A stretch of 64,000 bases of DNA from an uncultured Planctomycetaceae bacterium. GTDB taxonomy: Bacteria; Planctomycetota; Planctomycetia; Planctomycetales; Planctomycetaceae. The notes under the pieces are model-generated. The model ran no database searches. It was not told where the DNA came from and saw nothing but the letters and a program-made list of their open reading frames with translations. A program made the position numbers and the translations under genes. This document shows positions 13,851-28,144 of this stretch, one piece after another. Where the stretch lies: assembly GCA_963815195.1 (NCBI GenBank), contig CAWFGE010000004.1, forward strand, positions 59,451 through 123,450, read 5' to 3'. Position 1 is the first letter of the stretch; every line of letters begins with the position of its first letter.

Positions 13851-16800
13851 TCAGTTACCGGGTAGTAACCACTCAAGGCCGGCTTCTATAAACAATAGCC
13901 GGGTTTGAACAGATTTGGGATTGAGCGAAAACTGATGCTGAATCGCCGTGCGATAGGCTAGGAGTTGCGGTTGATAGAACTCGCCGAGTTCGCCTAAGGC
14001 TTTCGACGCATTCTTATCGATATGATCGGTTTTGAAGTCGATCGCGTCGGCACCGACAACGTGCCCGTCCTGCACAATGAGCACCAGCCGGTCGATGATG
14101 CCGTGCGTCAAGAGGTTATTGTGGCGATAGGCGGTCGGGTACTCGTGATGGAGTTCCAACGCAACCGGGCCGGAGGACATGGAATGGCTCGTATAGGATT
14201 CCCGTGAGAGGATTTGCCGAACCGCCGGTTGAATCAGGGCTTTGCCGAAGTGTTCGATTTCTTGGTCCAGGTTCAATCGCGGGTGGAGGAATTGCCCGGC
14301 GAGTTGCTTGAGGGTTTCATCGTCCGGCGGACCTTCCGATGGCGCTGCGTCCAGCCAGTCCACGTGCTCGAGCCAGGCATGCCAAAGGCTGCCGCGCGTG
14401 CGGGAGTAAACGGAATCCTCGCGAAACGTTTGCCCGATCGAGACAATCGTTCCGCCTTCCAAATCCGAAGGGGTCTGGCGTTCCAAGCGGCGGGTGCGAT
14501 GCAAAGCGGGCGGCTTCAATCGGAGGCTTAAGAGTTGCTCTTGGGGTGGTTCGCTTGTTGATTCTCTGTTAAGGGGTTGCCCGGCAAACCAGTGTTTGTC
14601 GCCATGCTCATAGAGCGTTTTTTCGGGCGGGATTTCCAGGCGGCCGTCGGTCAACGCCGACCTTAAGAGCCCGGCGTAGGTTTTGGGCAGCGAGCGTTCG
14701 TTCTCGCGGCTGGGGGCGACGATCATATAAAGCGCGTGCACCGCCCTGGTCATCGCGACATAGAGCAGGCAGAGGCTTTCGTTGTCGATTTGCTGATTGT
14801 AGTTTTCGAGCATCGCGTTAAACCGCGCCGGCAAGAGAGGCATGACTCTGCTGGGAATATAGCGGAAGACAGCCTCGATGGGGGCGGTGGGGTTTTTGCG
14901 GCCGACGATGACCGAGGGCGTCAATCCGCTCAATCGGCCGTCGAGTTCGGGGAGGACCACGATGTCAAACTGCAAGCCCTTCGATTGATGGATATTCATC
15001 ACCCGCACGTCGGCGGCGCTCGGATCTTCCACCTTCGTGGCGGAGACCATTTCGATAAAGTCCCCCGCCTGGAGGCTCGCCTGGTCTTCGTAGCGGTAGG
15101 CGAGGCTGACCAGTTGCATCAGCCGCGTGAGTTCGCGTTCGTTGCAGAAGGGCGTCAATTCCCGCACCCACTGATAGATCGTCCCCCCGTAGCCTGCTTC
15201 GAGCAACATTCGGCGGATGTCCAGCGACAACCGCCGGGCCGCGTCGTCGTCGGCGTAATCGGCAAAGCCCACGATCGTTCCCAGGCTGGAATGGGCCACG
15301 TGAAAGCGGGCGATGGTGTCCCCCGGATGGTCGGTGATCGCGAGGAGCGAAAGCACCAACTGCACGGCGGCGGAATCGAGCAGCGGGTTGCCGCCTTCTT
15401 CGCTGGCTTCGATGCCGTGCGTGTGGCGGAGTTCGTAAATCATCCGGGCGACGGCCTGGTTCTTCCGCACGAGGATCCCGATCGAAGCCCCCGGCGTTTC
15501 GCGGTGGAGCCTGGCGACCTCGGCGGCCGCGTATTTCAACGTTTCGACGGCCTGGCTTTCATCTTCCTCGGCCTGGGTCGCGGTTTGGAGGACAGAGTAG
15601 CCGGGGAAGTCGCGGGCGGTGGTATGGGTTTGAAACCGCTTCCGCCAAAGCTCGGCGATGCCGGGCAGCTTGGACATGACCTTGTTGGAATCGAGCCGGC
15701 CGAACACGCGGTTGACGACATCGATCACGATCTGGCTCGAACGATAGCTGCGGGTCAGTTCGCGCTCGGTCAGCCGGGGCAATTCTTGATCGAGCGAGGC
15801 GAACAAATCCGCCACGCCGCCGCGCCAACCGTATATCGCCTGCTTCACGTCGCCGACGCAAAAAAACGACCGCGCGGGATCTTCCGCGGCGGCCTCCGCA
15901 AACGGGCGAAGCACCGTCCACTGGAGCAGCGACGTGTCCTGGAATTCATCCAGAAGCAAATGCCCCACATGGGCATCGAGCCGGAACTCCAACTGCCCCG
16001 AGTCCATGTCCTGGATCGCATTCGCGAGCAGTTGGGTGATGTCCTGGAAGCGGTAGGACCTTTGCTCGGCTTTCAAGCGTTCGTAGGAACGGTGAAAGTG
16101 ATCCAAGAGCTTCCAGGTGGCTTCCGTCTGGTCGGCGATGCGGTTGACCAGCTGGGCCTTGACGTGCTCGATGATGGGCGCGTAAACCGCTCCGACTTCC
16201 GCCGGCACGAGCTTGTTGTAGTAGGTGGTTTTCCCTTCCAACAGAACTTTGATGAAACCCCCGCCGATCAGCTTGTCCCAATCGCCTTCGCTGGCGGTTT
16301 GCAAATCCCGCACGGCGGCGGTTTGAAAGCGCTTGTCGGGAAACCGGAGCGACGCGAGCGCGGAGAGGGCCTGTTCCCATTCCTCTTCGTCCAGCTTTTT
16401 GTAGCGATTGATCGGCTTCCACGCGGCGGGGATGTCTTCGCCGGCGGAGTCGGGGGTCGTTTCGAGATACAGGTTATAGAGGCCGTTTGCCGTTTGGCGG
16501 ATTTGATCGCTGACGGCCCGGCTCACGTCGCCTTTGTTCAAGAGATGGAGCAGCGTGAGCAGTTCCGAGACGCTGCCCTCGGCCAGAACGTTTTGAATCG
16601 CCAACGAGCGGAGCCGCTGGTCGGCGACTTCATCCACAATGGCCCAACCGGGCGGCAAGCCGAGTTCCAATCCGAAACTGCCCGCGATTTGCACGAAAAA
16701 ACTGTCGAGCGTGCTAATCCGCAGGCGGTGCAGATTGCGAATGAGTTTCGCCAACAGGTCCAGGCAGTCGGTCCGCTGGAAACTCTCGAGGGGGACATCT

Positions 16801-17090
16801 TCCCGAACCAGGCGGGAAAGTTCTTCGAGCTTTTGCGGATTGCCCGCGGCCTCGGCGAGACGCAGGACGACGCGGTCGAGAATCTCGCCGGCGGCTTTGC
16901 GGGCGAAGGTGGCGGCGAGGATTTCGTCCGGCCGGTCCGAGGCCCGCGCGAGCGCGATATAACGATTGGAAAGCTGGAACGTCTTTCCCGTGCCGGCGGA
17001 AGCGCGAATCACCTCGTTGGGAAACGCGACGTGGCTTCCCAACGAGGTGTTCTGTTCCTCGTCGTTCCAATCGAAGAGGGTTTGTCTCAC
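13851..17090 (-). CDS. addA: ATP-dependent helicase/nuclease subunit A (UvrD-type helicase + RecB-family nuclease)
   Basis: ASAGTGKT, LLDEFQDT, VGD.KQAIYGWRG, SYRS, HQSKGLQF, LYVAMTRA and C-terminal GIIDRL...IDFKT; GTG start overlaps the upstream stop. Confidence 0.85.
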   Translation of the reverse strand: MRQTLFDWNDEEQNTSLGSHVAFPNEVIRASAGTGKTFQLSNRYIALARASDRPDEILAATFARKAAGEILDRVVLRLAEAAGNPQKLEELSRLVREDVPLESFQRTDCLDLLAKLIRNLHRLRISTLDSFFVQIAGSFGLELGLPPGWAIVDEVADQRLRSLAIQNVLAEGSVSELLTLLHLLNKGDVSRAVSDQIRQTANGLYNLYLETTPDSAGEDIPAAWKPINRYKKLDEEEWEQALSALASLRFPDKRFQTAAVRDLQTASEGDWDKLIGGGFIKVLLEGKTTYYNKLVPAEVGAVYAPIIEHVKAQLVNRIADQTEATWKLLDHFHRSYERLKAEQRSYRFQDITQLLANAIQDMDSGQLEFRLDAHVGHLLLDEFQDTSLLQWTVLRPFAEAAAEDPARSFFCVGDVKQAIYGWRGGVADLFASLDQELPRLTERELTRSYRSSQIVIDVVNRVFGRLDSNKVMSKLPGIAELWRKRFQTHTTARDFPGYSVLQTATQAEEDESQAVETLKYAAAEVARLHRETPGASIGILVRKNQAVARMIYELRHTHGIEASEEGGNPLLDSAAVQLVLSLLAITDHPGDTIARFHVAHSSLGTIVGFADYADDDAARRLSLDIRRMLLEAGYGGTIYQWVRELTPFCNERELTRLMQLVSLAYRYEDQASLQAGDFIEMVSATKVEDPSAADVRVMNIHQSKGLQFDIVVLPELDGRLSGLTPSVIVGRKNPTAPIEAVFRYIPSRVMPLLPARFNAMLENYNQQIDNESLCLLYVAMTRAVHALYMIVAPSRENERSLPKTYAGLLRSALTDGRLEIPPEKTLYEHGDKHWFAGQPLNRESTSEPPQEQLLSLRLKPPALHRTRRLERQTPSDLEGGTIVSIGQTFREDSVYSRTRGSLWHAWLEHVDWLDAAPSEGPPDDETLKQLAGQFLHPRLNLDQEIEHFGKALIQPAVRQILSRESYTSHSMSSGPVALELHHEYPTAYRHNNLLTHGIIDRLVLIVQDGHVVGADAIDFKTDHIDKNASKALGELGEFYQPQLLAYRTAIQHQFSLNPKSVQTRLLFIEAGLEWLLPGN

Positions 17091-17866
17091 GGTTCGATTT
17101 CGTATCGCTTCAGGAAATCTTCCGGGATCTCCGCCGTCTTCTGGGCCACGAGGGCGAAATAAAACAGCGGGTGCCCTTCCATCGACAACCGATGGCGGTA
17201 TTTCTCCAAATGATACAGTTCCAGATACTCCGAGAAAATGAGTTCGCGGATGAATCGCGAAAATCCGGAGTCGTCGGACTTGTCCAGAAACGTCTCTTTG
17301 ATGTTGAACGCGACCCAGCCGCCGACCTGAATGAACTGGAGCGCTTTAAAAAACGCCCGCGGCGGAATGTCGCCGAAGCCCAAAGCCGCCACCGAAGTCA
17401 GGCAGTCGAAGGACCAGTCGGCGATCTGTTCCTCCAGCTTGGGCGACAGGTCGGTGAAGTCGGCGACATAGTATTCATCATACACGAAGGGCCGATCGCG
17501 GTAGGCGGCGTCTTTGGCTTCGGGGATGATGTCCACACCCACGAGCCGGGCCACGCCTTTGGACTTCAAAATCTCGCCCATCATGCCGTTGCCCGCGCCG
17601 AGATCGAGCACGCGGAGTTCCGTGGGCGGCTTGTCCCCGCCTTCCAGCGTCCGGTAGAGGATTTCGCCGACTTTTTTCGGCGACGTGCATTTCAGCCGGT
17701 CGTAAAACAGTTGTTCGTAAAGTTTGGGCCTGAGATAGATTTGATTGTAGTCGTGAAAACGCAGCTTCGTTTTGCGATCGCCTTCCTCGATCAAATAGAA
17801 ATAGACTTCGTCCTGGTTGAGGTCGGTGCTTTCTTGCGGCGGAAATTGAATTCGGTGTCTAGACAT
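17087..17866 (-). CDS. Class I SAM-dependent methyltransferase
   Basis: Motif I VLDLGAGNG, GVDI; ATG at 17866 after AAGGAGG; 4-bp overlap with addA. Confidence 0.85.
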   Translation of the reverse strand: MSRHRIQFPPQESTDLNQDEVYFYLIEEGDRKTKLRFHDYNQIYLRPKLYEQLFYDRLKCTSPKKVGEILYRTLEGGDKPPTELRVLDLGAGNGMMGEILKSKGVARLVGVDIIPEAKDAAYRDRPFVYDEYYVADFTDLSPKLEEQIADWSFDCLTSVAALGFGDIPPRAFFKALQFIQVGGWVAFNIKETFLDKSDDSGFSRFIRELIFSEYLELYHLEKYRHRLSMEGHPLFYFALVAQKTAEIPEDFLKRYEIEP

Positions 17867-18075
17867 TATGTCGCGCGTGCCCTCCTTAAAAAGAAAAACG
17901 GACGTTGGAAGATCGTCGGGGCGGTATTCCGTTTTTCCGTCCCGTTCGATTCCAACGCGTGAAAACGATGGGCATCCCCAGGGAAAGGGAGAAATCCCGA
18001 ATCCGGCGTGGGAGGATGCCCGTTCCCTTCCAACCCTACAAAACCCGGGCGGCGAAGGTAAGGGCAATCGGAAAA

Positions 18076-21000
18076 TCAGGCGGCCCCGCCGGCCGATTCG
18101 TCGGTTTTCAAGCTGGGGTGAAAATGCCGAATGCGGGTGACGGCCACCAGGCACGCCGCCTGCTCGCTGGGGCCGTGGGAGGCTTGAAACTCCTCGAGCA
18201 GCGGCAACAGAAATCCCGCGAACTCGCCGTCCTCGACCGCGGCGTCGCGGAGCGTTTCCACGAGCGCCAACTTCGCCTTGCGGTGGGGCAGCGGCTTTAA
18301 GCGGGTTTGGATCGTGCCCGCTTCCTCGCGGCGGGCTTCCGGACGGCCGGGCGGAAGCTCGAACAGCATCCGCCTTAAAAACCGCCTGAGCGCATCCGCC
18401 TCGGCGGGCAGGTTCTCCGGCTTCGGCGGAGCCCCCGTGCCCACGCTGTCTTCGGGAGATTTCGCCTCTTTTTTGCGTTTGCTCTTGAGCTGCGATTCGG
18501 GCAGCGGCGCGGGTTTCCAGTCCGACGTGATGCCCCGCGCGCGGTACAGCGACCAGAAGCTCTGAATCACGAACGCCCGCACCCGGCGGTCGGGGCTTTC
18601 GGTCAGGCGGAACAGTTCCGCCGGCAATTTCAATCGCGGATGCCGTTCGATCAAGTCCATCCCCAACGCCCGCGTGCCCTCGTCCCGCGATTCGCAAAAG
18701 CTGTAAACCGCATCGGCCGTGAGCACCCTTGGATCAATCCGATACCGGCGGTGCTCGGTGGTGTCCTCCGCGGTCATCGCCTTCGCCACGAACTGCCGGA
18801 CTTCCCCGTAAGGCGATTCGCACATCTCGATCAAACCTTCGATCGGCGGCGCCCAGCGGGCAAACTCATAACCGGCGATCTCAAGCGCAAACTCCCTGAG
18901 CGGCAATCGGCGTTCGAAAAACAACGGCTGCATGCGGTCGAAGGTGAGAAACTCCGCGGGAATCTCCGCACCCGGATCGACCGGCCGGTCCGTCTCCGCA
19001 AGACAAATCTCGGGATGATGCCGGCGAAAATACTTCAGGGCAAACTGCCGGAGCGGCGCGTCCGCTTTGCCCTCGCTGGTGAGCATCTCCCACAGGCGTT
19101 CGCAGCCGGCGGTCACGGCATCGGCGGAGAACTCCCGCTCTTCGCCCGCGAGCCTTTGCAAGAATGCCGTCTCCGAAATGATCTTCAGCTCGGCCCCTTC
19201 CTCCATCAGCGACTCGGCTTTGACCTGCTTGCTGCCTTTTCGCCCCTGGCCATAAAGCGGGCTGCCCTCGTCGCCGATGACGAGGTAATTCAAGTTTTTG
19301 TTGACGGCCGAGGCCACCTTGCCGCCGGCTTCGCGGACTTTCTTCTGGGCTTCGCCGCGGCTCATCGTGGCGAGCTTGCCCGTGAACAGAAACGAATCCC
19401 CGCCCAGATCGACCGCGGGTTTCTTGGGCTCGGCTTTTTTCTTTTTGGATTTTGCGGCGGGCTCGGGTTCCGGAGCCGCGTCTTTCGGAGCAAAATCCGC
19501 CGGCAAGAAGGCGCGGATCATCGTCTCCACCGCAAAGTCGTGATACCGCGGCTCGCTCCGCTGGACCAGTTCCATCAGCCATTCAAACCCCAACTGCCCC
19601 GGCGAAAACCGCCGCGGGTCGCTCAGCCAATGCAGAATCTCCGCCGAGAGTTGCTCATCGAAGTTCACGCCCCAATTCTTGACCGACGGGTAGTCCGACT
19701 TTTTCAGTTCTGCAATTTCGGGAGCGGCTTCGAAGGCGGGATGGTACGCCAATATTTTCAACCATTGGACGCCGACGGTTTCCGCTTTCAGCTTCCCTTC
19801 ATCAATCCAGTTGGTGATGGACGCCGCCGCATGATTGTTGAGCATGGACCGCTTTAAGAAATCGGGAGCGAGTTCGTTCGCATCGAATTTTTGCAGTTCG
19901 CCCATCGCGAAGAGAATCAGGTTCCGAACCTGCCAATACGAAATGCGATCCGTGTCCACCCAATCGACAAGGTCCATGAAAAAATCGGGGCCGAGCTTTT
20001 TGGTGGGATGCACGTCCGGCAGGAGTTTTTGCGCGAACGCTTGCGCGGATTCGTTTTCGCCCAACAGCCGTTCGCGGAACCACTCCGGGGTGAGTTCCTT
20101 CGCGCCGAAATGTTTGCGGATCATGTCCTGGGCCAGGTCGCCGCCGTGCTCGGTTTCGAGGAGCCGCCCCCAGGCGTCCAGGCCCACGTCTTTTCGCGGA
20201 TCGCGGGCTTTGACGAGATCGAGCGCCAGCTTGTGGACGTGGGAGTTCGGATTGTCGGCGAGGCGGATCAAATCCTCGATCGGCAAATCGCGGGCGTGGG
20301 TGCGGGCATAGTCGGCGGCATAGGCGCACGCCGAGTCGCTGGAAGAATCGAACAGCCGCAACACCGCGTCGTGCAAGCCCAGTTCGCGAAACGCCGCCTG
20401 CTCGAACTTGGGAACGTTCTTCAGGATCCATACGACGAACTCATCCACGACGCCGCTGCCCGCGCTGACCAATCGCGCGACCCAATCCGGCTCGACTTCC
20501 CGCAGCGTCGCGCGGAAGTCGGTCTTCAAACCCTCCACGGCGAACTCGCGGATGTCGTCGGACTTGGCCCGCTCCAAAAGTGAAAACAACGGCCGGGGCG
20601 TTCGCTGCCAAAGCTCGCCGAACGCCCGCTGCTTGATGAGCGACTTGGGACGCGAGCGGTAGCGAAACCGGCGGGCGGTGTAGCTGCCCGTCTCGTGAAA
20701 CAGGATGTGGTTCAAAACCCAACACCGGGGCCAATACCCGCTGTGGAAATCCTGCGGATAGTGCGCGAGGAAATCGACGCAGTGATCGGCATAGACCGCC
20801 GGCAGCGTTTGACCGGTCCGCCTCAAGAACCGCCACGCCCGCCGGACCAGATAGCCCAACGTCATTTTGCTGACCGCGGGCGATCCCCAGCCCGCAAACG
20901 CCATGTCGAACCGGGCCGCGAGCGCCCCGTAGATTTCCAGATCGCCCCGGGCCTCGGCTTCCTTGAAAATCCGCTTGAGCGCCTTCCAAGGCCCGTAAGT

Positions 21001-21360
21001 CAAAGGCACCTTCGCGATAATCCGCAGCAAACACGAGCGGGCAAAGACGCCGTTGTCTTCCCAGAGCACGCTGAGGATTTCGTGCAGCCGAAGCTTGTCC
21101 GGAAGCGGCACCTCCGCCTCGGGCGACTCAAGGGCCTTGAGCGTTTCCACGCGGTAATGGGCCTGCTCTTCCCGCGGCTTCTTGCGGAACGCGGGCGACG
21201 TGATCTCCCGCACGAATTTCTCGAACGTCAGCGCCCCCTCGCGCACGGGCGCTTCCGCTTCGGGCGGCGGCGCGGACGCGAGCCGCTCGACATAAGCGAC
21301 GAGTTCCGGGTCGCTCGTTTCCCAAGCCCGCCGAATGTCATCCAATGCGAGTTGCGCCAT
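18076..21360 (-). CDS. Large HEAT/ARM-like helical-repeat protein with an internal BRCT domain
   Basis: BRCT signature FLFTGKL..MSR.EA...V...GGKV.S.V.KNL.YLVIG...GSK..KA......IISE..F (~19150-19405); the rest looks like amphipathic helical repeats. Confidence 0.8.
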   Translation of the reverse strand: MAQLALDDIRRAWETSDPELVAYVERLASAPPPEAEAPVREGALTFEKFVREITSPAFRKKPREEQAHYRVETLKALESPEAEVPLPDKLRLHEILSVLWEDNGVFARSCLLRIIAKVPLTYGPWKALKRIFKEAEARGDLEIYGALAARFDMAFAGWGSPAVSKMTLGYLVRRAWRFLRRTGQTLPAVYADHCVDFLAHYPQDFHSGYWPRCWVLNHILFHETGSYTARRFRYRSRPKSLIKQRAFGELWQRTPRPLFSLLERAKSDDIREFAVEGLKTDFRATLREVEPDWVARLVSAGSGVVDEFVVWILKNVPKFEQAAFRELGLHDAVLRLFDSSSDSACAYAADYARTHARDLPIEDLIRLADNPNSHVHKLALDLVKARDPRKDVGLDAWGRLLETEHGGDLAQDMIRKHFGAKELTPEWFRERLLGENESAQAFAQKLLPDVHPTKKLGPDFFMDLVDWVDTDRISYWQVRNLILFAMGELQKFDANELAPDFLKRSMLNNHAAASITNWIDEGKLKAETVGVQWLKILAYHPAFEAAPEIAELKKSDYPSVKNWGVNFDEQLSAEILHWLSDPRRFSPGQLGFEWLMELVQRSEPRYHDFAVETMIRAFLPADFAPKDAAPEPEPAAKSKKKKAEPKKPAVDLGGDSFLFTGKLATMSRGEAQKKVREAGGKVASAVNKNLNYLVIGDEGSPLYGQGRKGSKQVKAESLMEEGAELKIISETAFLQRLAGEEREFSADAVTAGCERLWEMLTSEGKADAPLRQFALKYFRRHHPEICLAETDRPVDPGAEIPAEFLTFDRMQPLFFERRLPLREFALEIAGYEFARWAPPIEGLIEMCESPYGEVRQFVAKAMTAEDTTEHRRYRIDPRVLTADAVYSFCESRDEGTRALGMDLIERHPRLKLPAELFRLTESPDRRVRAFVIQSFWSLYRARGITSDWKPAPLPESQLKSKRKKEAKSPEDSVGTGAPPKPENLPAEADALRRFLRRMLFELPPGRPEARREEAGTIQTRLKPLPHRKAKLALVETLRDAAVEDGEFAGFLLPLLEEFQASHGPSEQAACLVAVTRIRHFHPSLKTDESAGGAA

Positions 21361-21427
21361 GAGAGATGCTCTCTAACAGAAACAGTCTCGATGTCCGACA
21401 TTAGCCCCCTGCGGCTAATGAATGAGA

Positions 21428-21513
21428 GAAAAAGGTAAAAAAGAATGACCGAGCACCAATTCCGATTGTTGCCGAGCGCGGGCACGTTCTGGGTCATTGT
21501 GTGTCGGTCATTC
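21428..21513 (-). terminator. Putative intrinsic terminator/attenuator between the retron ncRNA and the HEAT-BRCT gene
   Basis: GAATGACCGA (21443-21452) / TCGGTCATTC (21504-21513) stem with extended pairing, followed on the minus strand by TTTTTTACCTTTTT. Confidence 0.55.
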
Positions 21514-21515
21514 CT

Positions 21516-21768
21516 GTTCCTGAGAGCCGTCTACTTCTAGACCTGGGACATGGAAGGCTCACTGACCCGCCGTCCCGGTAGTGCAATTACCTGCAGCGGA
21601 ACCACGATGGGCGGGGTTGATCCAGACCGCTGCGAGGTAATTGCACTACCGGGACGATCAGCGGGTCTGAAACAGCCTTCCTTGTGAAGAGTGACAGGCA
21701 AAACGCTAGAACGGCGCAACGCCGCTCGCGGTGCAAGGCACCAAGCTAGACCTGGACTCTCGGAAACA
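21516..21768 (-). ncRNA. Retron-type msr-msd non-coding RNA resembling myxobacterial Mx162/Sa163
   Basis: 5' arm TTCC-GAGAGTC-CAG-GTCTA pairs with 3' arm TAGAC-GGCTCTC-A-GGAA; unpaired branching G in AGC at 21746; msr hairpins GGTGC/GCACC and GAGCGGCGTTGCGCCGTTC; ~130-nt msd stem-loop at 21553-21680. The predicted DNA ends resemble Mx162 msDNA as I recall it. Confidence 0.8.
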
Positions 21769-21773
21769 ACACC

Positions 21774-21802
21774 TGTCTATCAAACTTGAGGGGCAAACGC
21801 AA
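21774..21802 (-). promoter_or_regulatory. Putative sigma70-type promoter for the retron ncRNA
   Basis: TTGCGT (21802-21797), 17-nt spacer ending TGA, TAGACA (21779-21774); predicted start ~21767, about 22 nt before the branching G. Confidence 0.4.
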
Positions 21803-21814
21803 GCATATGGCGAT

Positions 21815-21883
21815 CCGCTTACTTTGTGCGCGGCTCTCCGCAGGTTTCGCGGCCGGTTAAAGAGCCACGCACGCAGTAAGCGG
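21815..21883. repeat. REP-like long inverted repeat downstream of the DUF58 gene
   Basis: CCGCTTACT.TGTGCG.GGCTCT ... AGAGCC.CGCAC.CAGTAAGCGG. Confidence 0.65.
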
Positions 21884-21894
21884 GAATCTCCTCC

Positions 21895-23232
21895 TCACAA
21901 CAGGTTCTGTTGGCGGAGTTCGATGAACTGGTTGATAAGGGGGAGCGTCAGATGTTGGGGGAGCGTGTCGATCACGTGGATGCCGCCGTGCTTGAGGGCG
22001 TAGATCGCCCGGCCGCGGTCCCGCAGCAGCCCGAGCGCCACCGCCTGGTCCGCTCCCTCTTCGATGGACTCAGGCTCGGCATAGACGACCTGCCTTAACA
22101 GCGGCGTTTGCAGGGCCGCGAACAGCACCAGGTGCTGGCGATTGAGCCGGGCGAGGGCCGCACAGTGCGTCCGCGATGTTTCCGCATCGCCCAGGTCGGA
22201 GAGAATCACAAGCAGGCAGCGTTTGGATTGGCGGTGCTTGAGCTCGGCGAAGAGTTGCGTGAAGTCGGTCTCCCGCCATTCGGTTTGCAGGTCGTAAACA
22301 CACTCCACGAGCCGCCCGAGTGATTTGGGGCCGGCGATCGGGGCGAGATACCCGCGGAGCGTGCTGTCGAACACGCCGACGCCGCAGCGGTCCCCGCTGT
22401 GAAGTGCGACCCGCGCCAGATTGAGGGCGGCGTCGATTGCGCAATCCAACTTCGACCCGCGATCGGTGAGCGCCTCCATCAACCGCCCCGAGTCCACGAG
22501 AATCAACACGTCCCGGTGCCGCTCCACTTGATACCGCCGGACGATCGGCGTGCGCTGCCGGGCGGTGGCCCGCCAATCGATCCGCCGGGGGTCGTCGCCT
22601 TGCCGATAGGGAAACAGCGAGACGAACTCCGTCCCCGCGCCGACTTGCCGCGAACGGGAGACTTTGTCCAACAACAGCAAATTCGCCCCCACATCTTTTT
22701 GCAGCTCGTCGCGGGACGCGAACGTTTCCGGGAGTACGCGGATTTCGCCCCGGCAATCGGTTTCCTTCTGGACTTCCGCGAGATCCCAAGGCCCGCGGAC
22801 GCGAACCCACACCGGCCCGAAGCGGTGTTCGCCGCGCACGGGGATTCGGCATTCGGTGGTCATCGATGTGGCCGCATCCTCGGGCGAATCCGCTGCGGCG
22901 AGTTCAAACGGATGAATCGACCATTGGGGCACACAGTCCGCGGGGAAAACGTCCCGCAGTTCTCCGCGGATCGGTTTCGAGCCGGCGTTCATGATCGCGA
23001 GTCTGGACTCGAATGGCAGATTCCGCCCGACCAGGCCGGGCAGCGTTCGCGAGACAGAGCATTCCTGGACCAGAGCTTTCGCGGCCCGGCTGTCTCGCCA
23101 GAACGCGAAACCCAATAAGATGAGCGCCGCCCCCAAGACCCATAAAACCTCCACCCAGAGAAACGCACCGAATCCGAACGCCGTCAGCACGCCTGCGAGT
23201 TCCATCAGGCGGGGGCCGGGCCGCGTTTTCAC
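21895..23232 (-). CDS. DUF58 (VWA-like) protein
   Basis: GTEF.SL..Y..GDDPRRIDWRATAR, ILVDSGRLM, VILSDL; overlaps the MoxR stop. Confidence 0.9.
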   Translation of the reverse strand: MKTRPGPRLMELAGVLTAFGFGAFLWVEVLWVLGAALILLGFAFWRDSRAAKALVQECSVSRTLPGLVGRNLPFESRLAIMNAGSKPIRGELRDVFPADCVPQWSIHPFELAAADSPEDAATSMTTECRIPVRGEHRFGPVWVRVRGPWDLAEVQKETDCRGEIRVLPETFASRDELQKDVGANLLLLDKVSRSRQVGAGTEFVSLFPYRQGDDPRRIDWRATARQRTPIVRRYQVERHRDVLILVDSGRLMEALTDRGSKLDCAIDAALNLARVALHSGDRCGVGVFDSTLRGYLAPIAGPKSLGRLVECVYDLQTEWRETDFTQLFAELKHRQSKRCLLVILSDLGDAETSRTHCAALARLNRQHLVLFAALQTPLLRQVVYAEPESIEEGADQAVALGLLRDRGRAIYALKHGGIHVIDTLPQHLTLPLINQFIELRQQNLL

Positions 23233-24176
23233 CGGGGCACCTCGACGATTTCGAGGATTTGGGCCAGCACCTCGTCGGCCGCGGTGCCTTCGAGTTCGAC
23301 GCTGGGGCTTAGGATCACGCGATGCCGAAGCGCCGGCAGAAACGCTTCCTTGATGTCGTCCGGGTTCACATAATCCCGGCCGCTGAAGCGGGCGAGGCTT
23401 TTCGCCCCCATCAACAGCATCAATCCCGCCCGCGGGCTGCCGCCGACTTCGAGGGCATCATCGTCGCGCGTCGCCTGGATCAACCGCTGGACATACCCGA
23501 GCACTTCGTCCCGCACGAACGTCTCGCGAATCAACTGCCGGCTGGCGATCAGATCGTCCGGCGTCATCACCTTTTGCAACAGCAGTCTCTCCGGCGACGA
23601 CAACCCCGACGTGGCGTGATGGGCCGCCAGCACCCGCACCTCGTCCTGGGGGTTCGGATAAGAGACCAGCACCTTGAACATGAACCGGTCCAACTGGGCG
23701 AGGGGCAGCGGATAGGTGCCTTCCTGCTCGATTGGGTTTTGCGTGGCGAACGTGATGAACGGCTCGGGCAGCCGATGCGTGATGCCGTCGTACGTGACCT
23801 GGAGTTCCTGCATGGCTTCCAGAAGGGCCGACTGCGTGCGGGCGGAGGCGCGGTTGATTTCATCGGCGAGCAGGAAGTTCGTGAACACGGGCCCTTGGCG
23901 GAACTCGAAAGTCCGCGTGTCCTCGCGATAGATCGACGAGCCGGTGACGTCGTTGGGCAACAGATCGGGCGTCATCTGGATGCGGTTGTGCGCGAGGTCG
24001 AGCACCGCCGCGATCGAGCGGACGAGCAGGGTCTTCGCCACGCCGGGCGGCCCTTCCAGGAGCACGTGCCCGCAGCTAAACAGGGCCGCAAGCGAGTAGT
24101 CGATCACCTCGTCCTGGCCGAAGATCACTTTGGAAAGTTCGCCGCGAATGGCTTGGATACGTTCTTCTAAAGACAA
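23229..24176 (-). CDS. MoxR-family AAA+ ATPase
   Basis: GHVLLEGPPGVAKT, RIQMTPDLLP.D, LLADEINRA, ATQNPIEQEGTYPLP.AQLDRF; TTG start after GGAGG. Confidence 0.93.
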   Translation of the reverse strand: MSLEERIQAIRGELSKVIFGQDEVIDYSLAALFSCGHVLLEGPPGVAKTLLVRSIAAVLDLAHNRIQMTPDLLPNDVTGSSIYREDTRTFEFRQGPVFTNFLLADEINRASARTQSALLEAMQELQVTYDGITHRLPEPFITFATQNPIEQEGTYPLPLAQLDRFMFKVLVSYPNPQDEVRVLAAHHATSGLSSPERLLLQKVMTPDDLIASRQLIRETFVRDEVLGYVQRLIQATRDDDALEVGGSPRAGLMLLMGAKSLARFSGRDYVNPDDIKEAFLPALRHRVILSPSVELEGTAADEVLAQILEIVEVPR

Positions 24177-25480
24177 GCTGCCAACCTCCGCATCGCATCG
24201 AGTGTCTGGGCTTCCGTCAATCGGCCGGGCCATTCGGCCAGGCGATCGGCCTCGGCAACCGCCTCGCGAAGTTGCCGGGCGCGGGCCGGGTTCCTGCGTT
24301 CGATCAGATTCGCGACCAGATCGACGTCTTGAGTTTCGGGAGGTAGAGCATACCCGGTGTTGAGTTCCCGCAACACCCCCGCGCGGATTTGCCGGATAAG
24401 AAACGCCCGCGCCTTTGCCCCTTTCGCAAACAGCCGCCCCATCGCAGAGATGTATTCGCCGATGTCCCGGCGGGAATGCGGCTCGTCCGGCAGCGGCGGG
24501 CCGAGCAGCGACGCTTTTCGCCAGGAGTCCAGGCCGATCCACAATAACAGCCCCAGCGCGATCGCCGCGTACCCGGGCAGCGTGAGCAAAAAAAACGGAT
24601 TCCCCCGCACGCCCAGGCCGTGGTAAAACTCGTCGAACACGACCGGCTCGCCCCGCGGCGAAAGCAGGTACGCCGCCGCGACGCTGTTGTCCTGTTGCGG
24701 CAGGAGGCGGTTGCGAAACAGCCCCTCATCGACGACCAGGATCGCGCCTTTCCCGCGCGGGAACTCCGCGGCGACGATGCGTTCTTCGCCGTCTTCGGTG
24801 AAATAGGAAATCTGTCCCGCCGGTTCGGTCTTCTCCCACACCAGCGTTTGCTCGGCATCGCCGGGCAAGGCCAGTTCGCTGACGTCCTTTTGCCAATCGG
24901 CCAATGTTCCCGTGCAGTCCACAACCACCACCCGCGGCGGGACGAGTTCGCGGTTGAGTTCCTTCAGGAAGGATTTGGAAAAGTCGTCTTCTTCGTCATG
25001 CTCCTGCTGGAGTTTTTGAAATTCCGCCTCGTGGTTCGCCCGTTCAAACTTCACGCCCTTGAGTCCCAGCGTTTCCAAGATCGTGGGCAGTTCCGTGGGC
25101 GACTGGGACAATTGGCTCAGCTTCAAATCGAGCGGAGTGGCCGCGCGCACGGCGACAACAAGCCGGCCCCCACCTTCGACCCAGGGCAGAAGATTCTTGA
25201 GGTAGCGCGGCTCCACCCCGGCGATCTGCGGGTCGGGATTCAAAAAGGCGATCGTCCGGTTTTCCGGCGCGGGATGCGGCGGGCGGAGTTGGCGGTCCAC
25301 CTCGACGCCGAGTTCGCCGAGCGTTTCAAAAATCGCCCGATAGCCGGCCTCGCGTGTCCCGTAGGTGTCGCGGCCCATCCCGCCGGAATCCGGCGTCTGG
25401 AACAGGCTCAACCAAACCGCGATCAGGCACAGCACCGCAATCAACACCGCGATCTGGATCAGGCTACGCACGGAGGGCAT
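24167..25480 (-). CDS. DUF4350-domain membrane protein
   Basis: N-terminal TM, DTYG...GY, L..WVE.GG.LVV, VVFDEFYHG, C-terminal TM and EYI..MGRL; usual position in MoxR operons. Confidence 0.75.
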   Translation of the reverse strand: MPSVRSLIQIAVLIAVLCLIAVWLSLFQTPDSGGMGRDTYGTREAGYRAIFETLGELGVEVDRQLRPPHPAPENRTIAFLNPDPQIAGVEPRYLKNLLPWVEGGGRLVVAVRAATPLDLKLSQLSQSPTELPTILETLGLKGVKFERANHEAEFQKLQQEHDEEDDFSKSFLKELNRELVPPRVVVVDCTGTLADWQKDVSELALPGDAEQTLVWEKTEPAGQISYFTEDGEERIVAAEFPRGKGAILVVDEGLFRNRLLPQQDNSVAAAYLLSPRGEPVVFDEFYHGLGVRGNPFFLLTLPGYAAIALGLLLWIGLDSWRKASLLGPPLPDEPHSRRDIGEYISAMGRLFAKGAKARAFLIRQIRAGVLRELNTGYALPPETQDVDLVANLIERRNPARARQLREAVAEADRLAEWPGRLTEAQTLDAMRRLAACL

Positions 25481-26135
25481 GCCGGCTCCTTTCCGCAATG
25501 CCGCGAATGCGGGTGTGCTCGTCCCGGCAGCTGAGAAAGTCCTCTTCCCGGCACACATCGTGCCCGTACCACTTCGCATCGATGACGGCCACGAACCGGG
25601 CGAGCGGCTCAAAAAGCGGCGTCGCGCGATACCGGCGGAGCAATTCACGATTCGTGATGCCTTTGCGAATTGGCCGCTCCTGGGCGCGCTCGATCCGCAA
25701 AATCGCCGCTGCGAACAAATACCGCACCGCCGCGATATAATCCCCCCGCGCGGAGGCCTCCTCCGCCGCCTGCTCGAGGTCGGCGGGCATGGCGGGCAAT
25801 TCGCGCTGTTGCTTCGGCGAACGCCGCAGCGGCACTCCGCGGAATGCCCGGACGAACGTGAGGATAATATGCGAGATCAGCACCACAACCAACACCGTCA
25901 GCGCAATGACAATCACCCACCGCAGACCGTCCGGCAGTCCGTCGAGCAAGTGAAAAAACGCGGCAATTTTTTCCAAAAACCACAAGAAGAGCCGGGTCAA
26001 CAGGCCCAGCGATTCGGAGTGTTGCGGGTTTTCCAATTCGTAATCCGGCCGCGCAAGCACCTCTTTCGCTTTCTCGCGGATCTGCTCCGGCGAAGCGATC
26101 GCCGCCAGGATGATGCAGTTGAAACCGCCGTTCAT
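25464..26135 (-). CDS. DUF4129-domain membrane protein
   Basis: A...A.RGDY..AVRYLF, TNRE and KWYG motifs after a TM segment. Confidence 0.75.
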   Translation of the reverse strand: MNGGFNCIILAAIASPEQIREKAKEVLARPDYELENPQHSESLGLLTRLFLWFLEKIAAFFHLLDGLPDGLRWVIVIALTVLVVVLISHIILTFVRAFRGVPLRRSPKQQRELPAMPADLEQAAEEASARGDYIAAVRYLFAAAILRIERAQERPIRKGITNRELLRRYRATPLFEPLARFVAVIDAKWYGHDVCREEDFLSCRDEHTRIRGIAERSRHALRA

Positions 26136-26181
26136 GCGACCATCCGCCCCCAAACTTGGCTTTTCAGATTCTGCCGGACGA

Positions 26182-27003
26182 TCATTCGCCTTCCACGTCG
26201 TCAAAAAAGACCGGCTCATCGTGCGGCGGGGCGGATTCGCCGACGGCTTGCGCCAAAAGTTCCAGGTCGAAATTCTCCACGCCGGACCGGCAGGAGAAAT
26301 AGAACACCACAAACACCGCGGTGGAAATCAACGTCACCACGGACTGCAGCAAAGCCTGAACAACGATTTGGGCATGAATCTGCGGAATCAGTCCCGCGCC
26401 GCCTTGGATCATGCCTGAGATCACAGCGATCAGGATCCCCAACACCAGAAATTGTCCCCAATAGGGCTTCATCAATAACTTGCTGCGGCTTAACGCGTCC
26501 GATCCACTTTTGTCCTCGATCACGACGACGTACTGATAGAGTCCAAACAAAACGGCGAAAATGATTCCCGGGATAATACACAACAGCGTGCCCCCAAAGA
26601 CCGCCAGCGAGTACAGAATCGTGGTTCCCAACAAGGGGAGGAATTTGGAGAACCCCTTGCGGAGGGATGCGCCCACGGTCACTTGCTTGCCGAGATACCG
26701 CTCCGCCACGGCATAAGTCACCGCGGCATTGGTGATCGGCAAGATCACGTAACCCCCAAACAAGGCAAAGCCGAGAAGGACGGGCATGGTGCTCGTCAAA
26801 TACTCGAGTTGCTCGGCGGGGGTCGAATCGGGCGTGGGCGGGGGAACGGAGGAAACCATCAAAGGCGCGAAGCCGGCCAGCAGTTGAAACGGAATCCAGA
26901 GGCAGGCCAAGATTCCCAACAACAGGCCGAAGTTGTCCCTAATGACGGCGATGCCTTGATCCAGGCATTCCCCCAAACTCAGTTCCCGAATCTCATATTT
27001 CAT
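26182..27003 (-). CDS. Multi-pass membrane protein (GDPD-membrane-domain-like) of the MoxR operon
   Basis: IRELSLGE.LD, L.IIPGI, ALSRS..L.K..W and YFS.R...E.FDL; several TM helices. Confidence 0.7.
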   Translation of the reverse strand: MKYEIRELSLGECLDQGIAVIRDNFGLLLGILACLWIPFQLLAGFAPLMVSSVPPPTPDSTPAEQLEYLTSTMPVLLGFALFGGYVILPITNAAVTYAVAERYLGKQVTVGASLRKGFSKFLPLLGTTILYSLAVFGGTLLCIIPGIIFAVLFGLYQYVVVIEDKSGSDALSRSKLLMKPYWGQFLVLGILIAVISGMIQGGAGLIPQIHAQIVVQALLQSVVTLISTAVFVVFYFSCRSGVENFDLELLAQAVGESAPPHDEPVFFDDVEGE

Positions 27004-27117
27004 GACAGCCCCCTCTTCATGGTGGATCGAACGGTGCGTCCCGGTGAACAAGTCACCTAGGTTACAACCTGACCGCCCGGTTCGCCAGCAAGTTTTTGGG
27101 AAACTGTCGCCGCTTCG

Positions 27118-27969
27118 CTACGAGTCGCGGCCCGGGCGTTTGAGGTGGTGCGGCTTGACGAGTTCGGCGTACATTTCGGGCCGGCGGTCCGCCAGGCGGT
27201 CGATGGCGTGCTCGCCCGGTTTGCGGACCGCGGTCTTCTGGCGGGCGAGGGCGGGATCGATCTCGGCGTACAAGATCTCTTCCCGCGTATGATCCGCCCC
27301 GGCAAGCGTGGAACCATTGGGCGCGCAAATCCGGCTCCCGCCGATGAACTCGAACCCCCGCTCGTGCCCCACGCGGTTGACGGCGATCATATACACCGCA
27401 TTCTCCATCGCGCGGGCATTGATGACATGAGCCGAAACGCACTCGGCCCCCGGCGGCCAGTTCGTGGGGAGCGCGATCACATCCGCCCCCAACAGCGCGA
27501 GCGTCCGCGAAGCTTCCGGGAACGCCGCGTCATAGCAGATATTCATCCCGATCTTCACATCCCCCGCCGAGTGCACCGCAAACGGCCGATCGCCGTAGCT
27601 CACATATTTATCGACGCCCAGAAACGGCAGATGCACTTTGCGGTAGCTGCCAAGGACGCCCGCCGGCCCCGTAAGCACCGCGGCGTTATAAACTGCGTCC
27701 CCGTCGCGCTCCAGCATCCCGAACACCGCGAACGCGCCCGCTTCCTGGCAGAGCTTCGTCATCAACTCCGTCGCCGGCCCGGGAATCGATTCGGCAAACG
27801 GCCTCGCCTCTTCCAGGTCCTGAAAGCAATACCCCGTCACCGCGCATTCGGGAAACACGATCAATTCCGTCCCGGCGTTCGCCGCTTCCCGAAACCGCCC
27901 CGCCATCCGCTCCAAATTCCCCGCCACATCCTGAAGTCGAACATCCATCTGCACGCCGGCGATCTTCAT
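27118..27969 (-). CDS. Carbon-nitrogen hydrolase (nitrilase/amidohydrolase family)
   Basis: Catalytic triad motifs VFPE, YRKVHL, ICYD..FPE; terminal DRRP.MY. Confidence 0.92.
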   Translation of the reverse strand: MKIAGVQMDVRLQDVAGNLERMAGRFREAANAGTELIVFPECAVTGYCFQDLEEARPFAESIPGPATELMTKLCQEAGAFAVFGMLERDGDAVYNAAVLTGPAGVLGSYRKVHLPFLGVDKYVSYGDRPFAVHSAGDVKIGMNICYDAAFPEASRTLALLGADVIALPTNWPPGAECVSAHVINARAMENAVYMIAVNRVGHERGFEFIGGSRICAPNGSTLAGADHTREEILYAEIDPALARQKTAVRKPGEHAIDRLADRRPEMYAELVKPHHLKRPGRDS

Positions 27970-28144
27970 TCATTGGTTTCCTTGTCTTGGGTATCAAACT
28001 GCGCTACAACGCGTCTCTGTCTTCATAACGAGGTTAGAGGATTGAGGTTAGAGATTAGAAAGTGATGCGGTGTCGTCACGCGGTTCGATCCTTCATCCTC
28101 TAACCATCCTCACTCCGAAACAATGAGTCGTGCCGCGACCAGAG

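What the first reader, a model, noticed from the sequence alone, without database searches (positions are those of the whole stretch)
21516..21802. Complete Mx162-like retron ncRNA with no adjacent reverse transcriptase
Seen: on the minus strand, 5' and 3' arms pair (GAGAGUC..GUCUA / UAGAC.GGCUCUC) leaving an unpaired G in AGC (21746). Two small msr hairpins follow, then a ~130-nt near-perfect stem-loop (core CGTCCCGGTAGTGCAATTACCT / AGGTAATTGCACTACCGGGACG). This is retron msr-msd architecture. Established, from recall: the hairpin GAGCGGCGUUGCGCCG and the predicted DNA ends (5' CTTCTAGACCTGGGACATGGAAGGCTCAC, 3' ACAGCCTTCCTTGTGAAGAGTGACAGGC) closely resemble Myxococcus Mx162 / Stigmatella Sa163. 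That predicts a ~166-nt msDNA (21534-21699). In those retrons the RT gene directly follows msd; no RT-like ORF exists in these 64 kb. Inference: a split, trans-acting retron or an RT-independent domesticated ncRNA in a planctomycete. Intact pairing argues against simple decay.
Basis: partly seen in the sequence, partly recalled or inferred. Interest (0 to 1): 0.92.

Follow-up and report, generated by a model that had tools for sequence, protein, structure and literature searches.

The report
Detached type XIII retron template RNA
This is an intact retron template RNA gene next to a retron accessory gene, and it belongs to a widespread RNA family that is encoded away from its reverse transcriptase and reaches 14 to 30 copies per genome in some Gemmata-like bacteria.

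Summary
A ~260-nt RNA on the minus strand (21775-21514) folds far better than shuffles (z -9.4). Its structure holds across 74 homologues from several phyla (64 of 77 pairs compensatory).

Type XIII is the Mx162/Sa163/Ne144 class (PMC7736814).

In four other genomes the same RNA belongs to a ~15-kb operon: HEAT-ARM, a giant second HEAT-ARM, SWIM, then RT. The RT is never adjacent in 80 surveyed loci.

In this genome the operon is shattered:
- The second HEAT-ARM lies on contig C8, in three reading frames.
- SWIM and RT lie on C23, separated by 9 kb of IS copies.
- The RT carries a 1-nt frameshift.

Family-wide, many copies are stand-alone genes with their own terminators. There are 14 places in G060 and 30 matches in G211. 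Their scaffolds are conserved, but the ~29-bp stem arms are unrelated, strictly Watson-Crick and enriched in palindromes.

The RNA co-occurs perfectly with one RT clade (14 of 14). Reverse transcription itself is inferred, not shown.

The parts
21514..21775 (-). msr-msd type non-coding RNA gene (covariance model R1 hit, 240 bits)
21775..21803 (-). Promoter-like element: CTTGCG (21803-21798), 17 nt, ATAGAC (21780-21775). Inferred by analogy with paralogues in other genomes.
   Evidence: The sigma-70 consensus scan found none here.
21747..21769 (-). a1, the 5' arm of the terminal stem (outer part variable across the family, inner GUCUA conserved)
   Evidence: helix 1: 6 of 7 pairs compensatory
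21746..21746 (-). Candidate branching G in UAGC (G in 73 of 74 homologues)
   Evidence: Priming itself was not tested.
21709..21742 (-). Two msr hairpins (GGUGC-CUU-GCACC and GAGCGGC-GUU-GCGCCGUUC)
   Evidence: helices 3 and 4: 10 of 13 pairs compensatory
21552..21681 (-). Long msd hairpin. The family-variable arms lie at about 21656-21630 and 21597-21571; the apical loop is conserved.
21534..21699 (+). Predicted ~166-nt msDNA (cDNA sense), starting opposite invariant G21534. Its extent is inferred from retron rules.
   Evidence: PMC7736814 introduction (passages read)
21514..21533 (-). a2, the 3' arm of the terminal stem (UAGAC, GGCUCUC, AGGAACAG)
21437..21513 (-). Terminator-like long-loop hairpin (GGAAUGACCGA...CUCGGUCAUUC) followed by U6
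   Evidence: fold -30.3 kcal/mol. The strict terminator scan found none.
18076..21360 (-). HEAT-ARM_XIII retron accessory gene, 1094 aa, with a BRCT domain at residues 656-703
18076..27118 (.). ~9-kb segment absent between the same flanking genes in same-genus genome G001. It holds HEAT-ARM, the ncRNA, DUF58, MoxR, DUF4350 and two small ORFs.

Best explanation
The element is the template RNA gene (msr-msd) of a type XIII retron. It belongs to a sub-lineage in which the RNA gene is detached from the reverse transcriptase. Inferred mechanism: the RNA is transcribed from its own promoter-like element and ends at its own hairpin plus U-tract. Its ends pair (a1/a2). The cognate RT recognises the conserved msr hairpins, primes on the 2'-OH of G21746 and copies about 166 nt. 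The product is a hairpin msDNA with a ~38-bp stem, which would work together with the two HEAT-ARM proteins and the SWIM protein. In relatives the RNA heads, or in one genome trails, a ~15-kb operon: HEAT-ARM, giant HEAT-ARM, SWIM, RT. In this genome the operon has been broken up. Only the RNA and the first HEAT-ARM remain here. The second HEAT-ARM is on contig C8 in three frames. SWIM and RT are on C23, split by IS copies, and the RT has a 1-nt frameshift. I put about 55:45 odds that no cognate msDNA is made in this strain. Shown: the RNA structure and its conservation, the gene identities, the scattering and the co-occurrence. Inferred: transcription, priming, msDNA synthesis and any defence role. 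The confidence given is for the identity of the element and the family-level mechanism, not for activity in this strain.
For: Structure: z -9.4; 64 of 77 pairs compensatory on 74 homologues. Retron hallmarks: an a1/a2 stem with two opposing invariant Gs (73 of 74 and 73 of 73), two msr hairpins and a long msd hairpin. Neighbour: P0001 matches PADLOC HEAT-ARM_XIII at E=0, 1200 bits, over the full profile. Operon in G054, G060, G185 and G068: RNA, HEAT-ARM, giant HEAT-ARM_XIII (PDLC02919), SWIM_XIII, RT_XIII. In G068 the RNA lies 180 nt after the RT. Co-occurrence: all 14 of 14 RTs in one 100/100-supported clade come from genomes that hold this RNA, and 0 of the 12 RT_XIII-positive Myxococcota genomes without the RNA have an RT in that clade. 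In the Planctomycetota sample the HEAT-ARM homologue occurs in exactly the 2 of 150 genomes that hold the RNA, and both are missing from 39 of 39 close relatives. Distant homology to canonical type XIII RNAs: the model hits directly upstream of 7 RTs among 30 RT loci. Wobble pairs make up 0.56% of cells (19 of 3414) in the long hairpin, against 8.8% (151 of 1708) in a1/a2 plus msr and 24% (106 of 442) at the hairpin base. This is as expected if the stem must also pair as its DNA complement. Scattering in G000.
Against: No msDNA, transcript ends or branch have been observed. The public runs gave only contigs. Rfam msr (RF00170) does not match, although that model rang in no control genome either. 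One Myxococcota genome (G300) has the RNA but no RT_XIII at E<=1e-60. In the consensus model the candidate branching G is drawn paired with a C (GC in 54 of 74), whereas retron branching Gs are described as unpaired. The two helices at the hairpin base are rich in G.U, so they would not form in the cDNA. The frameshifts may be assembly errors: two sit in short homopolymers, and the IS-copy control was not decisive. Consensus scans found no sigma-70 promoter or canonical terminator here. Related genomes are not independent, so the co-occurrence counts overstate the support.
Confidence: 0.82

Rival explanations
1. The retron is still fully functional in this strain as a split system. On this view the frameshifts in the RT and the second HEAT-ARM are assembly errors, or the intact paralogous RT_XIII on C13 substitutes, and the RNA is reverse transcribed in trans.
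For: Unlinked RNA genes are the rule in Myxococcota: 10 of 10 sampled RNA-positive genomes besides G210, and G210 itself, have the RNA on a different contig from their RTs. Most Gemmata-type copies are also unlinked. So distance alone need not stop function. The RNA, HEAT-ARM (1094 aa) and SWIM (727-aa frame) are intact. Two of the three frameshifts lie in CCC and AAAAA runs. An intact RT_XIII of 559 aa exists on C13.
Against: There are three frameshifts within about 8 kb of retron genes, one of them not in a homopolymer. Other long ORFs in the window are unbroken, and 10 of 13 IS copies keep their 514-526-aa frame. IS copies are inserted between SWIM and RT. The C13 RT belongs to a different clade, one that does not track this RNA.
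Confidence: 0.38
2. The RNA acts as RNA only, without reverse transcription. For example, it could be a scaffold or regulator for the HEAT-ARM proteins encoded next to it.
For: Its most constant neighbour is HEAT-ARM, not the RT: 29 of 81 surveyed matches have HEAT-ARM within 1.5 kb, and none has an RT within the held flanks. Type XIII function is uncharacterised in the papers I could search.
Against: It co-occurs perfectly with one RT clade. It has the two opposing invariant Gs typical of retron priming sites. Wobble pairs are almost excluded from the long stem only. It is distantly homologous to RNAs that sit directly upstream of canonical type XIII RTs.
Confidence: 0.07
3. It is a canonical Mx162-type retron whose RT gene, once directly downstream, was recently deleted or lost through misassembly.
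For: Homology with G001 resumes exactly at the HEAT-ARM stop codon, so a rearrangement did occur at this site.
Against: In all four intact relatives the gene after the RNA is HEAT-ARM, and the RT lies 10-13 kb further on or upstream of the RNA. None of 80 loci has an RT within the held flanks. What was lost from this site is the giant HEAT-ARM, SWIM and RT block, and its parts are found on C8 and C23.
Confidence: 0.03
4. It is a REP/MITE-like repeat or a chance hairpin.
For: Some genomes hold 14-30 copies.
Against: It is single-copy in its own genome. Copies differ completely in their stems yet keep pairing, promoter-like elements and terminators. The neighbours of 20 orphan copies are unrelated housekeeping genes with no transposase pattern. 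Its distribution is tightly linked to retron genes.
Confidence: 0.01

Closest known systems
Type XIII retrons: Retron-Mxa1 (Mx162), Mxa2 (Mx65), Sau1 (Sa163), Nex2 (Ne144). Source: Mestre et al. 2020, PMC7736814 (Table 1 and passages read).
   Same: The protein set is the same: clade-10 RT (RT_XIII), WH/SWIM protein and HEAT/ARM proteins. The RNA plan is the same: a1/a2 stem, opposing Gs, msr hairpins and a ~160-nt hairpin template. The predicted msDNA of ~166 nt compares with 162-163 nt, the latter figures recalled from the retron names. The model of this RNA weakly detects the RNAs upstream of canonical type XIII RTs.
   Different: In the canonical form the RNA lies between SWIM and RT, directly upstream of the RT. 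Here SWIM abuts the RT and the RNA lies at the far end of the operon or elsewhere in the genome. Scores separate the two RNA groups (11-37 against 96-262 bits). Copy number reaches 14-30 per genome.
PADLOC retron type XIII variant with two HEAT-ARM genes (models PDLC02921, PDLC02919, SWIM_XIII PDLC02972, RT_XIII PDLC02956)
   Same: All four protein models match at E<=1e-148 in this genome and its relatives.
   Different: Those models describe proteins only. I found no description of the RNA of this variant, its position or its multiplicity. Searches. The supplements of PMC7736814 could not be read.
Engineered retron arrays ('multitrons'), bioRxiv 10.1101/2023.07.17.549397 (listing and abstract only)
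   Same: One RT serves several different template RNAs in one cell.
   Different: Those arrays are man-made. Here the arrangement would be natural, with dispersed stand-alone genes.
Retrons whose msDNA senses phage DNA-modifying proteins, such as methylation-activated retron defence, bioRxiv 10.64898/2026.10.13.758329 (listing abstract only)
   Same: The idea that the msDNA stem is the surface phage enzymes act on. This would give the variable, palindrome-enriched stems a purpose.
   Different: Those systems have one msDNA. No sensing has been shown for type XIII, and the link is my inference.
Rfam msr (RF00170)
   Same: It is named for the retron msr RNA.
   Different: There is no match at E<=10 in the region or at E<=1 in 5 family-positive genomes. 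The model also rang in none of the 14 control genomes, so this test has little power.

Membership tests
Retron msr-msd ncRNA (general definition, PMC7736814 introduction) | Complementary 5' and 3' ends (a1/a2) enclosing msr and msd | tested here: met
   helix 1 is 87.6% paired, with 6 of 7 pairs compensatory
Retron msr-msd ncRNA (general definition, PMC7736814 introduction) | Conserved branching G at the inner end of a1, with an opposing G at the a2 side | tested here: met
   G in 73 of 74 and 73 of 73. The consensus model draws the first G paired with a C, and branching chemistry was not tested.
Retron msr-msd ncRNA (general definition, PMC7736814 introduction) | One to three short msr stem-loops and one long msd hairpin | tested here: met
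   two msr hairpins; a median of 38 pairs span the hairpin centre in 105 copies
Retron msr-msd ncRNA (general definition, PMC7736814 introduction) | RNA gene contiguous with the RT gene in one transcript | tested here: not met
   no RT on contig C4, and 0 of 80 loci have an RT within the held flanks. Only G068 has the RNA 180 nt after the RT.
Retron msr-msd ncRNA (general definition, PMC7736814 introduction) | Production of branched msDNA | not testable with these tools
   Only contigs of public runs were available
Type XIII retron system (Mestre 2020; PADLOC) | HEAT/ARM accessory protein(s) | tested here: met
   (E=0, full length, adjacent gene). (second HEAT-ARM on C8, split over three frames).
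Type XIII retron system (Mestre 2020; PADLOC) | WH/SWIM protein | tested here: met
   SWIM_XIII E=3e-193, on contig C23, not in the window
Type XIII retron system (Mestre 2020; PADLOC) | Clade-10 RT (RT_XIII), intact | tested here: inconclusive
   the cognate-clade RT on C23 matches at E=3e-148 but is read in two frames. An intact paralogue on C13 belongs to another clade.
Type XIII retron system (Mestre 2020; PADLOC) | Match to the published type XIII ncRNA covariance models (A_firmi, B_Ne144, C_Mx162/Mx65) | not tested
   The models are not held here and the supplements are unreadable. Indirect test: my model hits canonical RT-adjacent RNAs only weakly.
Rfam msr RF00170 | Score at or above the gathering threshold (52 bits) | tested here: not met
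   The control rang nowhere, so the test is weak.
REP/MITE-type dispersed repeat | Many near-identical copies in the same genome | tested here: not met
   one copy in G000. Copies elsewhere differ completely in their stems.

The most novel reading that the evidence does not exclude
One retron reverse transcriptase naturally serves a whole library of template RNAs encoded in trans. In Gemmata-type genomes, one operon plus 13 to about 29 stand-alone RNA genes share promoter, RT-recognition scaffold and terminator. Each carries a different ~29-bp stem of fixed length, perfectly Watson-Crick and enriched in palindromes. The cell would then hold dozens of distinct msDNA hairpins, perhaps as a panel of baits for sequence-specific phage DNA enzymes. 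The cassette-like replacement of stems inside otherwise ~90%-identical paralogues would point to a dedicated diversification process or to strong diversifying selection.
Probability: 0.35. Interest if true: 0.9.

Novelty: new variant of a known kind. Interest (0 to 1): 0.72.

Why it matters
Retrons are defined as an RT with a contiguous template RNA, and surveys look for that RNA next to the RT. This RT clade breaks the rule. Its RNA lies 10-13 kb away at the other end of the operon, or anywhere in the genome. It is found in Planctomycetota, Myxococcota, Verrucomicrobia and Pseudomonadota records such as Psychrobacter, Moraxella and Thiothrix.

That would explain why some type XIII systems appear to lack an RNA. 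It gives a covariance model and a search pattern to find these RNAs. It also raises a testable idea: a natural one-RT, many-template retron whose msDNA stems are the variable part. Multiplexed retrons have so far been built only by engineering.

For this particular genome the finding is more modest. It is an IS-shattered retron whose RNA and first accessory gene survive intact.

Tried and rejected
- **Rfam.** Nothing reached gathering score in the 64 kb. At E<=10 in 21300-22000 there were only hairpin look-alikes of miRNA families and three other sub-threshold hits. RF00170 found nothing in 5 genomes and rang in no control.
- **BLAST of the element on 60 relatives.** It found only G054 and G060. 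The 23-24-nt hits in G004 and G009 are chance-level.
- **Consensus promoter and terminator scan of 21200-22000.** 0 and 0.
- **MoxR/DUF58 as part of the system.** Rejected: homologues lie near the RNA in only 2 of 80 loci.
- **Recurrent neighbour of orphan copies.** None among 77 flanking ORFs of 20 orphan loci.
- **Variable stem matching another place in the own genome.** Nothing beyond 11-14-nt chance matches.
- **Viral contigs.** One match, identical to locus L086.
- **Public runs.** Only Logan contigs with small shares. They say nothing on msDNA, transcript ends or expression level in this organism.
- **Earlier findings of this scan.** Nothing.
- **Supplements of PMC7736814.** Unreadable, so I cannot say whether that study listed an RNA for planctomycete type XIII loci.
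- **IS-copy comparison as a gauge of assembly indel errors.** Not decisive.
- **Structure prediction, complex prediction and protein-database searches.** Not used.

Full report
**1. What is in the window**

- A terminal stem forms between 21769-21747 and 21533-21514.
- It is followed by UAGC, with the G at 21746.
- Two short hairpins lie at 21742-21730 and 21727-21709.
- A long hairpin spans 21681-21552, and its core arms are exact complements.

As RNA, the 266-nt stretch folds at -140.6 kcal/mol against -92.4 +/- 5.2 for shuffles (z -9.4). The predicted 166-nt cDNA folds as DNA with z -10.8. Rfam has no match, either at gathering score over the 64 kb or for msr at E<=10 in the region. The element occurs once in its genome. 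The genome's six RVT_1 matches all lie on other contigs.

**2.

The 1094-aa gene directly downstream (21360-18076) has a BRCT domain and HEAT repeats in Pfam. It matches the PADLOC model HEAT-ARM_XIII over its full length at E=0 and 1200 bits. Mestre et al. (PMC7736814; Table 1 and passages read) define type XIII retrons by three components: a clade-10 RT, a WH/SWIM protein and HEAT/ARM proteins. They place Mx162, Mx65, Sa163 and Ne144 in this type. The RNA therefore sits inside a type XIII retron context.

**3. The intact arrangement in other genomes**

A covariance model (R1) was built from six copies found by BLAST. It finds the RNA in G054, G060, G068 and G185.

In G054, G060 and G185 the order is as follows:
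- the RNA;
- HEAT-ARM, about 1100 aa;
- a giant WD40/HEAT protein of 2100-2300 aa, which matches a second HEAT-ARM_XIII model;
- SWIM_XIII, about 625-650 aa;
- RT_XIII, about 435-450 aa.

The RT therefore lies 10-13 kb from the RNA. In G068 the genes are in the same order, but the RNA lies 180 nt after the RT.

**4. The state in this genome**

A tblastn search on the laid genome finds the missing parts elsewhere.
- The giant HEAT-ARM is on C8:535693-542046. It is read in three frames covering profile positions 2-860, 858-1573 and 1562-1967.
- SWIM is on C23:245055-247235, in an open 727-aa frame (E=3e-193).
- The RT is on C23:234480-235764, in two frames.

The RT shift sits in a CCC run. One HEAT-ARM shift sits in an A5 run and the other is not in a homopolymer. 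The 9 kb between SWIM and RT is filled with IS copies. One 1.78-kb element has at least 13 further copies in the genome. A duplicate of the SWIM 3' end also lies there.

Same-genus genome G001 is 87% identical to the window up to exactly 18076, the HEAT-ARM stop codon. Its next gene corresponds to window 27124-28049. So about 9 kb, including the RNA and HEAT-ARM, is specific to this genome. Neither the RNA nor HEAT-ARM was found in 39 of 39 relatives. I cannot tell whether the frameshifts are real. IS copies differ by 27 gap openings in 23 kb, and 10 of 13 keep their long frame.

**5. The RNA family at large**

I examined the 80 loci for which DNA was given. Their titles are mostly Planctomycetota: Gemmata, Singulisphaera, Fimbriiglobus, Isosphaera and Paludisphaera. 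Other titles include Nannocystis, Bradymonadales, Psychrobacter (7), Moraxella, Thiothrix, a Desulfobacterales record and a Verrucomicrobia MAG.

The 81 matches divide as follows:

| Context of the RNA match | Matches |
|---|---|
| HEAT-ARM directly downstream, same strand | 20 |
| HEAT-ARM divergently upstream | 9 |
| None of the four retron genes within at least 9 kb on both sides | 20 |
| None within at least 1.5 kb on both sides | 14 |
| Flanks too short to judge | 18 |

No locus (0 of 80) has an RT in the held flanks.

Copy number varies widely. G060 has 14 places: 13 full-length copies and one lacking the long hairpin. The genome of L062 has 30 matches.

In a sample of 150 Myxococcota genomes, 10 besides G210 hold the RNA. 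None of these has an RT or HEAT-ARM within 1.5 kb of it.

**6. Link to one RT clade**

RT_XIII was found in 22 of 151 Myxococcota genomes. I built a tree of 40 retron RTs. Left out of the tree were the frameshifted G000 C23 RT, the non-retron or wrongly framed loci L001-L004, L020-L022, L024, L027 and L031, and L029, which is the same gene as the G060 operon RT.

One clade has 100/100 support and 14 members.
- All 14 come from genomes that hold the RNA.
- The 12 RT_XIII-positive Myxococcota genomes without the RNA have no member in this clade.
- In this clade SWIM abuts the RT.

In the neighbouring canonical clade there is a gap between SWIM and RT. R1 gives weak hits in that gap (E 5e-8 to 0.16), on the RT strand, in 6 of its 8 members plus L200. 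So this RNA is a distant relative of the classical RT-adjacent type XIII RNA that has been moved away from the RT.

There is one exception: G300 has the RNA but no RT_XIII at E<=1e-60. In the Planctomycetota sample the HEAT-ARM homologue occurs in G068 and G185 only, the same two genomes that hold the RNA. Related genomes are not independent, so these counts are descriptive.

**7. Features that bear on mechanism**

- **Covariation.** On 74 copies, 94.1% of cells pair and 64 of 77 pairs show compensatory change (the alignment is fitted to the model).
- **Opposing Gs.** The G after a1 and the G before a2 are invariant. These are the opposing Gs that Mestre et al. mark in retron RNAs (legend of their Figure 2 read).
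- **Wobble pairs.** They make up 8.8% of cells in a1/a2 plus msr and 24% in the two helices at the hairpin base. They make up only 0.56% (19 of 3414) in the long hairpin. I read this as selection for pairing in both the RNA and its DNA copy. It is indirect evidence.
- **Fixed stem length.** The stretch between the two conserved blocks measures 98-106 nt in 103 of 105 distinct copies, while stem sequences are unrelated (median 41% identity).
- **Cassette-like stems.** In a set of paralogues from one genome, about 90% identity holds across a CTTGC-N17-19-TATGTT promoter-like element, a1/a2, msr, the apical loop and the terminator hairpin. The ~29-bp arms share nothing.
- **Terminators.** Most of the 32 copies folded from G060, G211, G054 and G000 are followed by a strong GC hairpin just after a2, often with a T tract.
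- **Palindromes.** Six-base palindromes are enriched in the arms: 110 against 75.6 +/- 8.3 in dinucleotide shuffles and 41.1 +/- 6.8 in genomic 30-mers. After removing similar arms the count is 98 against 67.1 +/- 7.4. Of those 89 arms, 62 have at least one, against 45.6 +/- 4.3 in shuffles. This last point is exploratory.

**8. Reading**

The window holds an intact template RNA and the first accessory gene of a type XIII retron. The other genes of that retron were scattered by rearrangement and may be dying.

The family as a whole is a variant of the retron plan in which the RNA is a separate gene, often present in many differing copies. I found no description of this in the library. Searches. 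For PMC7736814, PMC13712802 and PMC10849725 I read passages; for the rest I saw listings only. The supplements of PMC7736814 could not be read.

Reverse transcription, trans action and any role in defence remain inferences.

Noticed in passing
window 21895-25648 (minus strand): A MoxR AAA+ ATPase, a DUF58/VWA protein and a DUF4350 protein form an operon just upstream of the RNA, inside the ~9-kb strain-specific segment. Homologues lie near the RNA in only 2 of 80 other loci.
   Followed up: partly
window 13851-17900 (minus strand): A SAM-dependent methyltransferase and a 1079-aa UvrD-helicase/PD-(D/E)XK nuclease follow HEAT-ARM. They are shared with same-genus genome G001, so they are not part of the retron segment.
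   Followed up: partly
G000 C23:236001-245100 and elsewhere: A 1.78-kb IS-like element has at least 13 further copies at 90.7-99% identity. A ~2.06-kb element has several copies at ~89%. These fill the gap between the retron SWIM and RT genes, and a duplicated SWIM 3' end lies at C23:243551-244084.
   Followed up: partly
G000 C12:1097101-1100286 and C13:1180405-1181499 (L057, L258): A second type XIII-like set exists: an ARM-like gene and a SWIM-like gene (35% identity to the G060 SWIM) on C12, and an intact 559-aa RT_XIII on C13. Here too the RT is away from its accessory genes. No RNA was sought for this set.
   Followed up: no
G000 C20:330422-331453 (L005); L001-L003: A further retron-type RT scores best as 'RT_other/outgroup' and has ACG in place of the VTG motif (judged by eye). 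There are three other RVT_1 genes, one of 634 aa with a C-terminal HNH-like region (by eye, group II intron-like).
   Followed up: no
L055 1141-3119 (G185 C944): The intact operon of G185 lies next to ParA and ParB-like genes, judged by eye from the translations. It may sit on a plasmid or another partitioned replicon.
   Followed up: no
L086 7218-10006 (same DNA as IMG/VR locus L259): One orphan RNA copy of the Gemmata sp. IIL30 record lies beside phage terminase large- and small-subunit genes, in a stretch that IMG/VR lists as viral.
   Followed up: partly
L120; G210 C7:10434-11021; G355 C234:9286-10179; G060 C1:1006001-1007502: Tandem or near-tandem RNA copies occur in several places: two ahead of one HEAT-ARM gene in L120, two in G210, three in G355, and two 1.2 kb apart in G060.
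   Followed up: no
L047 (G060 C1:3696866-3696992): This is a natural copy that keeps a1, the msr hairpins and a2 but lacks the whole long hairpin.
   Followed up: no
window 21541-21720, run X4: A salt-marsh metatranscriptome library holds two relevant contigs. One 151-nt contig matches 21570-21720 with 7 differences. One 161-nt contig has the same flanks but a different 101-nt stem, so it is another family member. DNA can be present in such libraries, so this is only a hint of expression.
   Followed up: partly
variable stem arms of 103 (89 after de-duplication) family copies: Short palindromes resembling restriction or modification sites are over-represented, with 37 different 6-mers. ACCGGT, GGCGCC and GAATTC are the commonest.
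   Followed up: partly
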